Notes: generated by a model not told the origin, from the sequence alone. A DNA stretch of 64,000 nucleotides from Clostridia bacterium (GCA_017613275.1 JAGAED010000003.1:68747-132746); one strand, 5' to 3'. Positions 34,269 through 34,393 are shown, counted from the stretch's first letter. Made by a program: numbers and translations.

Positions 34269-34393
34269 ATTCAATATGTAAAAATCGTTTGTCCTTGTTG
34301 TCGCGACCTCTCTTATTGAAGTAGGACAGGTCGCTCCAGAACTTCGCTTCGCTTCGCATTACGCGGACTGCACTTACTTTTTACATATTGAAT
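34269..34393. repeat. GC-rich (~55%) 93-bp core bounded by perfect 16-bp inverted repeats ATTCAATATGTAAAAA / TTTTTACATATTGAAT
   Basis: IRs at 34269-34284 and 34378-34393. The core contains nested palindromes (tgtcct..aggaca, gtcgcgac) and a (cttcg)x3 run. Located immediately 3' of ftsK. Confidence 0.6.

What the first reader, a model, noticed from the sequence alone, without database searches (positions are those of the whole stretch)
34269..34393. GC-rich structured 93-bp island bounded by perfect 16-bp inverted repeats directly after ftsK
ATTCAATATGTAAAAA (34269-84) and TTTTTACATATTGAAT (34378-93) flank a core that is ~55% GC in a 28% GC genome. The core contains nested palindromes (tgtcct...aggaca, gtcgcgac) and a cttcg triplet run. 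It is too structured and GC-rich for a simple terminator. Candidate explanations are a small structured RNA, a miniature inverted-repeat element footprint, or a recombination (dif-like/attC-like) site positioned next to ftsK.
Basis: seen in the sequence. Interest (0 to 1): 0.55.

Follow-up and report, generated by a model that had tools for sequence, protein, structure and literature searches.

The report
Small mobile GC-rich hairpin repeat
The GC-rich island after ftsK is one copy of a previously undescribed, low-copy family of about 125-bp hairpin-forming DNA insertions. The family sits between genes in a few uncultured rumen Clostridia; it is a small selfish-type repeat and is not linked to ftsK or to a recombination site.

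Summary
A perfect 16-bp inverted repeat (34269-84 / 34378-93) encloses a 93-bp core of 51.6% GC, the most GC-rich 93-nt stretch in a 29% GC window.

It is not specific to ftsK. Five more family members were found (six distinct sequences counting the window's; a partial seventh copy, L001, has an assembly gap). They lie in other low-GC Clostridia contigs, between gatC/gatA, fabZ/accC, two peptidase genes, and a VanZ-like/CapD-like pair. A sixth lies in the same ftsK spacer of a 95%-identical strain, but in the opposite orientation and only 80% identical.

Relatives with 63-84% identical neighbour proteins have an empty 29-44 nt spacer. The gatC/gatA spacer is 11-20 nt where empty and 158 nt where filled. 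The element points either way relative to its flanking genes (3 to 3).

Each copy has perfect arms, yet the arms differ between copies (8 compensated pairs). A 7-bp inner hairpin is invariant. An 18-nt stretch is identical in six of the seven copies, with one change in L070.

Nothing matched in Rfam, tRNA search, plasmids, phages or viral contigs. Five contigs of the same strain all show one orientation, so there is no sign of phase variation. GC skew does not change sign, so it is not dif.

Best reading: a non-coding, MITE/ERIC/RPE-like mobile palindromic element whose transposition enzyme is unknown. A mobile structured RNA is not excluded.

The parts
34269..34284 (.). Left arm of the perfect 16-bp inverted repeat (ATTCAATATGTAAAAA). 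The inner 11 bp, AATATGTAAAA, are shared by the family; the outer bases vary between copies.
34378..34393 (.). Right arm of the inverted repeat (TTTTTACATATTGAAT).
34285..34377 (-). The 93-bp GC-rich core (51.6% GC). The family 'sense' strand, defined as the strand carrying GGTCGCGACAACAAGGAC, is the window's minus strand, so it is antisense to ftsK and the downstream gene.
   Evidence: model R1 scores 139.6 bits on the minus strand, 26.3 on the plus strand
34291..34308 (-). The 18-nt segment GGTCGCGACAACAAGGAC (read on the minus strand). It is identical in six of the seven copies, with one G>A change in L070. Its 3' two-thirds are predicted to be unpaired.
34303..34334 (.). Inner hairpin: a 7-bp stem GCGACCT / AGGTCGC, invariant in all copies, with a variable AT-rich 18-nt loop.
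   Evidence: (helix 5: 7 pairs, never vary)
34342..34356 (+). (CTTCG)x3 run, which reads GCGAAGCGAAGCGAAG on the sense strand. This is the most variable part of the core, with substitutions and a 5-nt length difference between copies.
34356..34366 (.). Small hairpin CGC-ATTAC-GCG (sense strand CGC GUAAU GCG). The other copies have ACGC-GTAG-GCGT here.
   Evidence: helix 4
34264..34270 (.). AATTTAT, the left copy of a 7-bp direct repeat that overlaps the end of the arm. The right copy is at 34391-34397. It may be a target-site duplication, but this is weak (P about 0.04) and is not reproduced in the other copies.
34391..34397 (.). AATTTAT, the right copy of that direct repeat.
31845..34265 (+). 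ftsK (806 aa), the upstream neighbour. It is context only and not functionally linked to the element.
34436..36022 (+). A conserved 528-aa protein with no known domain and a TTG start, the downstream neighbour. Its ribosome-binding site GAAAGGAG is native to the locus, because it is also present at empty sites.

Best explanation
This is one copy of a low-copy family of about 115-127-bp non-coding palindromic insertions. Each has AT-only terminal inverted repeats of 14-18 bp around a conserved GC-rich core of about 90 nt. The family occurs in a narrow clade of uncultured, roughly 29% GC rumen/gut Clostridia.

The element entered the short ftsK-to-next-gene spacer in this lineage only. It behaves like a miniature mobile element of the MITE / ERIC / Correia / Rickettsia-palindromic-element kind:
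- It lands in short spacers between co-directional genes, close to the upstream stop codon.
- It inserts in either orientation.
- It encodes nothing.
- It is carried passively within the operon transcript, where either strand folds into a long hairpin.

Shown here: family membership, insertion polymorphism, both orientations, hairpin covariation, and absence from the known RNA libraries.

Inferred: it is moved in trans by an enzyme encoded elsewhere that recognises the shared inner arm (AATATGTWAAAA) and/or the near-invariant 18-nt segment. Every copy has perfectly complementary arms even though the arms differ between copies. That suggests a folded single-strand (hairpin or cruciform) stage, or arm-to-arm templated correction, rather than ordinary double-strand end recognition.

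Its position next to ftsK is incidental.
For: Family at unrelated loci:
- The exact 18-mer scan of 185,579 species genomes hit two different contigs of one low-GC Clostridia MAG, at gatC|gatA and fabZ|accC. All other hits were chance matches in high-GC genomes.
- The hairpin pattern scan of metagenomes gave two more copies on about 30% GC contigs.
- Model R1 scores all copies at 140-158 bits, and the gap-containing L001 at 90 bits.

Insertion polymorphism:
- The ftsK spacer is 170 nt here, but 44, 34, 29 and 39 nt in relatives whose 528-aa protein is 84, 63, 72 and 70% identical.
- The gatC|gatA spacer is 158 nt in the filled genome, but 11-20 nt in relatives with 86-93% identical GatA.

Recent activity or turnover:
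- A strain whose flanking genes are 95% identical in nucleotides (91% at third codon positions) carries a copy in the same spacer. That copy is in the opposite orientation, is only 80% identical, and has different flanking spacer sequence.

Orientation:
- The sense strand runs with the genes in 3 loci and against them in 3.

Hairpin maintenance:
- 94% of cells are paired.
- 8 pairs carry changes on both sides.
- 0 of 500 shuffles reach the covariation score.

No known class and no coding capacity:
- Rfam gave nothing near the element, and ARAGORN found no tRNA there.
- No ORF of 40 aa or more lies inside it.
Against: - No consistent target-site duplication. Only the window shows a 7-bp flanking direct repeat, at P about 0.04.
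- The outermost bases of the arms are the most variable part, the opposite of what is usual for transposase-recognised ends.
- No autonomous partner or transposase with the same ends was found. The window holds no second arm pair, and none of the 15 window proteins scanned is a recombinase.
- Copy number is very low. There is one copy in this 64 kb and none in about 260 kb of non-redundant related DNA.
- Strong conservation of a GC-rich core in a 29% GC genome, an 18-nt stretch that is almost invariant yet largely unpaired, compensatory changes, and four G-U pairs that exist only on the sense strand would also fit a selected structured RNA.
Confidence: 0.62

Rival explanations
1. It is a structured non-coding RNA of a new class, either an sRNA gene or a module processed out of operon transcripts. 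It would function as RNA on the sense strand (the window's minus strand), and it happens to be horizontally mobile.
For: - It is the most GC-rich stretch in an AT-rich window. High-GC intergenic regions are the criterion used to find structured RNAs in AT-rich genomes (PMC6429828, PMC11109978; only their titles and abstracts were seen).
- Covariation is present.
- U-G pairs at columns 22/116 (3 copies) and 28/112 (1 copy) exist only on the sense strand, against one such pair on the antisense strand.
- The sense strand folds 2-4 kcal/mol better than the antisense strand in three copies.
- Where columns 33-34 with 107-108 are not Watson-Crick, they form tandem G.A/A.G, and columns 29 and 31 with 110-111 do the same. 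This is a common RNA helix motif (the motif assignment is from general knowledge).
Against: - No Rfam family matches at E<=10.
- Half of the copies are antisense to the surrounding operon, and no promoter or terminator frames them.
- The closing stem has no G-U pairs inside its conserved part and is perfect in every copy, which is more typical of a DNA-level constraint.
- The element is absent from close relatives, so it is dispensable.
- With only 6 distinct sequences, covariation cannot separate RNA from single-stranded DNA.
Confidence: 0.17
2. It is an invertible DNA switch (inverton). A site-specific recombinase flips the 93-bp core between the inverted repeats to switch the downstream gene on or off.
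For: - It has inverted repeats flanking a short segment directly upstream of a gene.
- A 95%-identical strain has the core in the opposite orientation between the same arms.
- A scaffold gap and contig breaks fall inside the element.
Against: - Five contigs from five samples that encode the identical 528-aa protein all have the window's orientation and identical sequence.
- The two orientations differ by 20% in sequence and in the adjoining spacer, far more than the 5% divergence of the flanks, so they are different alleles and not flip states.
- No promoter-like site lies within the core.
- Other copies sit inside housekeeping operons (gatCAB, fab/acc).
- No recombinase was seen among the 15 window proteins scanned.
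- The contig breaks fall at the inner palindrome, a typical assembler artefact (inference).
Confidence: 0.05
3. It is a site-specific recombination site placed next to ftsK, either dif-like (XerC/D) or attC-like (integron).
For: - It is adjacent to ftsK.
- Each arm loosely resembles a XerD half-site: ATATGTAAAAA against TTATGTAAACT of Bacillus dif. That comparison is from memory and is a lead only.
- The hairpin architecture is reminiscent of folded attC sites.
Against: - The arms are 93 bp apart, not 6-8 bp.
- GC skew is positive in all sixteen 4-kb bins, so the window is not at the replication terminus.
- At least 2 copies occur in one genome, at loci unrelated to ftsK.
- Close relatives lack it at this site.
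- No GTTRRRY core sites occur in the arms (sequence).
Confidence: 0.02
4. It is a locally evolved transcription terminator or mRNA-stabilising hairpin for ftsK.
For: - It lies 3 nt after the ftsK stop codon.
- It forms a strong hairpin (-39.5 kcal/mol).
- The 3' flank is moderately U-rich.
Against: - No terminator-like site was detected.
- The base of the stem is pure A-U and no consistent U-tract follows it in the family.
- The same sequence occurs at unrelated loci and is absent from orthologous spacers, so it did not evolve in place.
Confidence: 0.04

Closest known systems
Bacterial miniature palindromic insertion elements: ERIC/IRU (about 127 bp, Enterobacteria), Correia/NEMIS (Neisseria), RUP (Streptococcus pneumoniae)
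   Same: All are about 100-150 bp, non-coding and bounded by terminal inverted repeats. The whole element folds as a hairpin. They sit in transcribed intergenic spacers in either orientation, and strains differ in presence or absence. (The properties of the known elements are from general knowledge.)
   Different: - Those families usually have tens to hundreds of copies and a TA duplication, and some have a cognate IS. Here the copy number is about 1-2 or more per genome, no consistent duplication is seen and no partner is known.
- The arms here are pure A/T and perfectly complementary in every copy while varying between copies.
- The core is GC-rich in a 29% GC genome.
Rickettsia palindromic elements (RPE) and other CGTC/GTAG-tagged palindromic repeats (PMC3733652)
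   Same: They are small palindromic mobile repeats in an AT-rich genome with no transposase of their own. They are thought to act as RNA or DNA hairpins.
   Different: - RPEs also insert into coding sequences in frame and end with a CGTC tag.
- REPs are 20-40 bp with a terminal GTAG.
- Here GTAG occurs only inside the core (GCGTAGGCGTAG), not at an end, and only one copy (L037) overlaps the last codons of a gene.
GC clusters of yeast mitochondrial DNA (for example GC42; PMC4478555), and hairpin elements of fungal and sponge mtDNA
   Same: - They are GC-rich, hairpin-forming, mobile islands in a very AT-rich genome.
- Substitutions concentrate in the loops while the stems are kept.
- Presence/absence varies between strains.
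- The transposition mechanism is unresolved, and cut-and-paste alone does not explain them.
   Different: - They are organellar and 18-42 bp long, in dozens to hundreds of copies.
- They have no AT-rich terminal arms.
- There is no sequence relationship to this family.
REPIN / RAYT system
   Same: These are hairpin-forming doublets of about 100 nt that are mobilised as single-stranded DNA by a domesticated HUH tyrosine transposase. That mechanism would explain hairpin-dependent maintenance.
   Different: - In REPINs the conserved parts are the two arms (the REPs) and the loop is free. Here the loop (core) is the conserved part.
- No RAYT was seen.
- The family is not high-copy.
Invertible promoters (invertons) of gut bacteria
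   Same: Short inverted repeats flank a 100-200 bp segment upstream of a gene.
   Different: There is no within-strain orientation heterogeneity, no internal promoter, and copies lie inside housekeeping operons. Two better inverton candidates exist elsewhere in this window (see Noticed in passing).

Membership tests
MITE-like small mobile palindromic element | Terminal inverted repeats bounding a short non-coding segment | tested here: met
   Every copy has perfect arms of 14-18 bp. No ORF of 40 aa or more lies inside the window's copy.
MITE-like small mobile palindromic element | Several copies at unrelated loci in one genome | tested here: met
   Two copies lie on two contigs of MAG RGIG2630 (gatC|gatA and fabZ|accC), and two lie on two contigs of metagenome Ga0129311. 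Copy number is low: no further copy in about 260 kb of non-redundant related DNA.
MITE-like small mobile palindromic element | Filled and empty sites among close relatives | tested here: met
   The ftsK spacer is 170 nt filled against 29-44 nt empty. The gatC|gatA spacer is 158 nt filled against 11-20 nt empty.
MITE-like small mobile palindromic element | Target-site duplication of fixed length flanking each copy | tested here: inconclusive
   The window has a 7-bp AATTTAT repeat (P about 0.04). The other five copies show only 5-6-bp repeats at inconsistent offsets, P = 0.05-0.5.
MITE-like small mobile palindromic element | An autonomous element or transposase with the same ends | not testable with these tools
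   No second arm pair occurs in the window. No transposase or recombinase is among the 15 window proteins scanned. Whole genomes of the clade could not be searched.
REP / REPIN | A 20-40 bp imperfect palindrome with a terminal GTAG (or CGTC) tag, in high copy number, with a RAYT gene | tested here: not met
   The unit is 115-127 bp. Its ends are AT-only arms. GTAG is internal. Copy number is low. Criteria are from PMC3733652.
Rfam RNA families (4227 models) | A covariance-model score at or near the family threshold | tested here: not met
   The only hits are two matches at E about 0.8 outside the element. The gathering-threshold search of the window finds only tmRNA and a c-di-GMP-I riboswitch. 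ARAGORN finds no tRNA here.
Inverton (phase-variable invertible segment) | Both orientations coexist within one strain or population | tested here: not met
   All 5 contigs from different samples with the identical neighbour protein have the same orientation. The opposite-orientation allele is 20% diverged. Raw reads were not available.
Inverton (phase-variable invertible segment) | A promoter, or an orientation-dependent terminator, inside the segment | tested here: not met
   No promoter-like or terminator-like site lies within 34269-34393.
dif (Xer) site | Two 11-bp arms separated by a 6-8 bp central region | tested here: not met
   The arms are separated by 93 bp.
dif (Xer) site | A single site at the replication terminus, where GC skew changes sign | tested here: not met
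   GC skew is positive in all 16 bins of the window. At least 2 copies occur per genome.
Integron attC site | R''/R' core sites (RYYYAAC / GTTRRRY) and an integron integrase or cassette context | tested here: not met
   The arms lack these motifs. The neighbours are ftsK, an unknown protein and a beta-CASP nuclease.
Intrinsic terminator | A GC-rich stem immediately followed by a U-run | tested here: not met
   The scan of 33800-34800 found 0 sites. The base of the stem is 16 A-T pairs.

The most novel reading that the evidence does not exclude
The family could be a bacterial counterpart of the mitochondrial GC clusters: a structured nucleic acid that moves through a folded single-strand intermediate (DNA or RNA). 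In that case the hairpin itself, and not a double-stranded end sequence, would be what is recognised and copied. This would explain three things:
- the arms are perfect in every copy yet differ between copies;
- an 18-nt, largely unpaired segment is almost invariant;
- one spacer in two 95%-identical strains holds two different family members in opposite orientations.

If so, the mobility enzyme or mechanism would be of a kind not yet linked to such elements in Firmicutes.
Probability: 0.15. Interest if true: 0.6.

Novelty: new member of a known kind. Interest (0 to 1): 0.3.

Why it matters
- High-GC islands in AT-rich genomes are routinely taken as candidate structured RNAs. This case shows that such an island can be a low-copy mobile palindrome.
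- The report supplies a sequence model (R1) and seven copies, one of them partial, with which the family can be masked or studied.
- The element breaks short-read assemblies at its inner palindrome. It also marks strain-level differences between otherwise 95%-identical rumen Clostridia, so it could serve as a strain marker.
- The unexplained perfection of the arms and the missing transposase make it a small, tractable case for learning how such hairpin elements move.
- It says nothing about FtsK biology.

Tried and rejected
- **Rfam.** An E-value search of 34100-34600 and a gathering-threshold search of the whole window found nothing at the element. ARAGORN found no tRNA there.
- **Copies inside the window.** blastn-short and mismatch searches for the arms or core found only AT-rich chance matches, mostly the codons GAA TAT GTA AAA.
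- **Viral contigs.** Three scans gave only chance hits in high-GC phage contigs or nothing.
- **Plasmids and phages.** BLAST found no match.
- **Model R1.** It found no extra copies in about 260 kb of non-redundant related loci (363 kb searched, including duplicate contigs). One weak hit, L010 2075-2115, is an unrelated AT-rich hairpin beside a terminator.
- **Pre-existing hairpin.** I considered that the GC core had inserted into an existing AT-rich hairpin. This is rejected because the empty sites contain no palindrome.
- **Inverton.** Rejected on 5 of 5 contigs having the same orientation, and on 20% divergence between the two orientation alleles.
- **Simple inversion between the window and L070.** Rejected because the spacer sequences outside the arms also differ and cannot be aligned collinearly.
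- **Target-site duplication.** No consistent signal.
- **Promoter and terminator scans.** Nothing inside the element.
- **Recombinase or transposase in the window.** None among the 15 proteins scanned.
- **IS608-type TTAC/TCAA ends and the XerD half-site resemblance.** I noted these by eye but judged them coincidental or unsupported.
- **Literature.** Two searches found analogues but no description of this family.
- **Look-ups that returned nothing.** The exact ftsK product and the exact beta-CASP product are not on record.

Full report
**What is in the sequence**

ATTCAATATGTAAAAA (34269-34284) and TTTTTACATATTGAAT (34378-34393) are 16/16 complementary and 93 nt apart. The left arm begins 3 nt after the stop codon of an 806-aa FtsK (ORF 31845-34265).

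No other 93-nt stretch of the window reaches even 48% GC. The inner palindromes and the (CTTCG)x3 run are present.

Both strands fold far better than shuffled sequence:
- plus strand: -39.5 kcal/mol, z = -5.4
- minus strand: -41.8 kcal/mol, z = -5.1
- 0 of 200 shuffles fold as well in either case

A perfect inverted repeat of 16 bp or more within 200 nt is expected about 0.06 times per simulated window.

**Known classes do not match**

Rfam 15 gives nothing at the element, even at E<=10. At gathering thresholds the window contains only a tmRNA (51597-51952) and a c-di-GMP-I riboswitch (39695-39783). ARAGORN finds no tRNA here. No promoter-like or terminator-like site lies inside the element. 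No ORF of 40 aa or more lies inside it.

**The element is an insertion**

The downstream gene (34436-36022) encodes a 528-aa protein with no Pfam, NCBIfam or PDB relative. It has more than 800 homologues in uncultured 'Clostridia bacterium' MAGs. The gene order ftsK, this gene, then a beta-CASP nuclease is conserved.

The spacer between ftsK and this gene has these lengths:

| Source | Identity of the 528-aa protein to the window's | Spacer |
|---|---|---|
| Window | n/a | 170 nt |
| L002-L005 | 84% | 44 nt |
| L006 | 63% | 34 nt |
| L067/L068 | 72% | 29 nt |
| L069 | 70% | 39 nt |

. The window spacer minus the element aligns with the empty spacers: TTATAAGAATTTTACAAAAAGTAGAAT against AATAAGTATTTTATGCAAAAGAAGA. 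About 125 nt were therefore added just after the stop codon in this lineage.

**It is a family**

I define the 'sense' strand as the one carrying GGTCGCGACAACAAGGAC. This is the window's minus strand.

- An exact scan for that 18-mer in one genome per species (185,579 species) returned 27 stretches. All were chance matches in high-GC genomes except two, which lie on two contigs of one low-GC MAG (Clostridia bacterium RGIG2630, goat omasum).
- A scan of JGI metagenomes for the inner hairpin pattern gave two more copies on about 30% GC contigs.
- A cluster-mate protein led to an ungapped copy of the allele seen in L001 (L070).

| Copy | Flanking genes | Direction of flanking genes | Sense strand relative to genes |
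|---|---|---|---|
| L010 | gatC / gatA | + | with |
| L017 | fabZ / accC | - | with |
| L035 | M23 peptidase / S41 peptidase | - | against |
| L037 | VanZ-like / CapD-like | - | against |
| L001, L070 | ftsK / 528-aa gene | + | with |
| Window | ftsK / 528-aa gene | + | against |

. Orientation is therefore 3 to 3.

All copies lie in short spacers between co-directional genes, within about 35 nt of the upstream stop codon. In L037 the last four codons and the stop codon of the upstream ORF are part of the arm.

The gatC|gatA site is empty (11-20 nt) in relatives with 93%, 87% and 86% identical GatA, against 158 nt in L010.

A covariance model of the family (R1) scores every copy at 140-158 bits on the sense strand, and L001, which contains an assembly gap, at 90 bits. 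It finds no further copy in about 260 kb of non-redundant related DNA (363 kb searched, including duplicate contigs), so copy number is low. Nothing real turned up in viral contigs, plasmids or phages.

**Anatomy and conservation**

The alignments show these features:
- The arms share the inner 11 bp, AATATGTWAAAA.
- The outer 2-7 bp of the arms differ from copy to copy (ATTC, TATTC, TAC, GT, TAATCC, AAAACT) but are always perfectly complementary within a copy.
- A 7-bp hairpin, GCGACCT/AGGTCGC, never varies. Its AT-rich 18-nt loop varies freely.
- The adjoining CGCGACAACAAGGAC is almost invariant, although most of it is predicted to be unpaired.
- A pentamer-repeat region (GCGAAGCGAAG...) changes in sequence and length.

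On the structure I specified:
- 94% of cells pair.
- 8 pairs carry changes on both sides.
- No shuffle out of 500 reaches the covariation score.
- Slid controls fall to 29-43% paired.

Most of this signal comes from the outer stem. Inside the core, pair 28/112 changes from U-A to C-G in L037. The pairs 33-34 with 107-108 are Watson-Crick (UC/GA, GC/GC) in three copies and tandem G.A/A.G in the other three.

Four G-U pairs exist only on the sense strand, against one on the antisense strand. The sense strand also folds 2-4 kcal/mol better as DNA in three copies. That is a weak hint of strand asymmetry.

**Not a flip-flop switch**

The copy in L001/L070 sits in the same spacer with the same arms, but with the core inverted relative to the window. 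That first suggested an invertible switch. Two results argue against this.

- Five contigs from five samples encode the identical 528-aa protein. All have the window's orientation and identical sequence. Two of them simply end at the inner palindrome, as does the 10-N gap in L001.
- The window and L070 are 95% identical across ftsK and the 528-aa gene (91% at third codon positions). Yet their elements are only 80% identical, and the spacer sequences outside the arms cannot be aligned collinearly.

The two are different alleles. They arose by independent insertion, by replacement with another family member, or by an old inversion followed by fast divergence. They are not two states of one switch. 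The window's nearest family member is still L070, with which it shares the arms and a GTCCTA loop start, so I cannot tell which of these histories is right.

**Not dif or attC**

- The arms are 93 bp apart rather than 6-8 bp.
- GC skew is positive in every 4-kb bin of the window.
- Other copies have nothing to do with ftsK.
- The arms lack attC core motifs.

The resemblance of an arm to a XerD half-site is from memory and led nowhere.

**Most likely mechanism**

The pattern is that of a small selfish palindromic insertion, comparable to ERIC, Correia, RUP or Rickettsia palindromic elements. It rests on a low-copy family, filled and empty sites, either orientation, location in spacers inside operons, no coding capacity and whole-element hairpin folding. 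In compositional terms it is also comparable to the GC clusters of AT-rich yeast mitochondria. Those clusters likewise keep their stems, vary in their loops and lack a settled transposition mechanism (PMC4478555; PMC3733652).

Three things do not fit an ordinary MITE:
- There is no consistent target duplication.
- The outermost arm bases are the least conserved.
- Every copy has flawless arms despite differences between copies.

I infer a folded single-strand stage, or arm-to-arm templated correction, with the shared inner arm and the invariant segment as the recognition features. This step is not shown. Once inserted, the element is presumably transcribed with its operon. It forms a long hairpin whichever way it points, and any effect on mRNA is untested.

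**Verdict**

This is a real feature and an undescribed family of a known general kind. Its link to ftsK is coincidental. Interest is modest. It would rise if the element proved to move by a new hairpin-dependent route or to be a functional RNA.

Noticed in passing
window 37899-38054 and 44192-44348: Two segments are bounded by the same 18-bp inverted repeat (TTAAAAAACATTAATGAT / ATCATTAATGTTTTTTAA). Their 120-nt AT-rich interiors are 83% identical and lie in the same absolute orientation. Each sits directly upstream of a paralogous gene with a pilin-like N-terminus (MNLFEKNKGITLIALIV...). One gene is on the + strand (ATG at 38081) and the other on the - strand (start at 44165). Relative to their genes, the two segments therefore point in opposite ways. 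They are good candidates for invertible promoters controlling surface proteins.
   Followed up: partly
window 34436-36022: A 528-aa protein with no Pfam, NCBIfam or PDB match has more than 800 homologues. It always lies between ftsK and a beta-CASP (RNase J-like) nuclease in these Clostridia. It is a conserved protein of unknown function in a cell-division / RNA-decay neighbourhood.
   Followed up: partly
window 39695-39783: A c-di-GMP-I riboswitch (71 bits) lies directly upstream of a 219-aa ORF (39800-40459). That ORF has no Pfam domain and only a faint resemblance to a surface-associated protein family.
   Followed up: no
window 50485-50556: A perfect 33-bp palindrome with a 6-nt loop lies between convergent genes (49015-50472 on +, 50591-51166 on -). 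It is probably a bidirectional terminator. A similar sequence (gggacactt-caaaaagttaag) also follows the beta-CASP gene at about 37728-37750.
   Followed up: no
L010 2105-2200: Another GC-rich inverted-repeat region (GAACAATGACGCGGACAT ... ATGTCCGCTATTGTTC) lies upstream of gatC in MAG RGIG2630. It is unrelated in sequence to the family studied here.
   Followed up: no
L037 3125-3140: A second partial copy of the right arm (TTTACATATT) lies 4 nt beyond the element, inside the 3' end of the VanZ-like ORF. The native gene end resembles the arm, which may hint at a target preference for arm-like sequence.
   Followed up: no
L054 and L055 (start corresponds to window 34329); L001 2887-2896: Two Logan contigs start, and one scaffold has a 10-N gap, exactly at the element's inner palindrome. 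The element breaks short-read assemblies.
   Followed up: yes
window 40685-41725: A RhuM-family protein (E = 5.5e-111) lies among surface-protein genes with Big_2 and BspA-type LRR domains. This may be a variable island around 38-46 kb.
   Followed up: no
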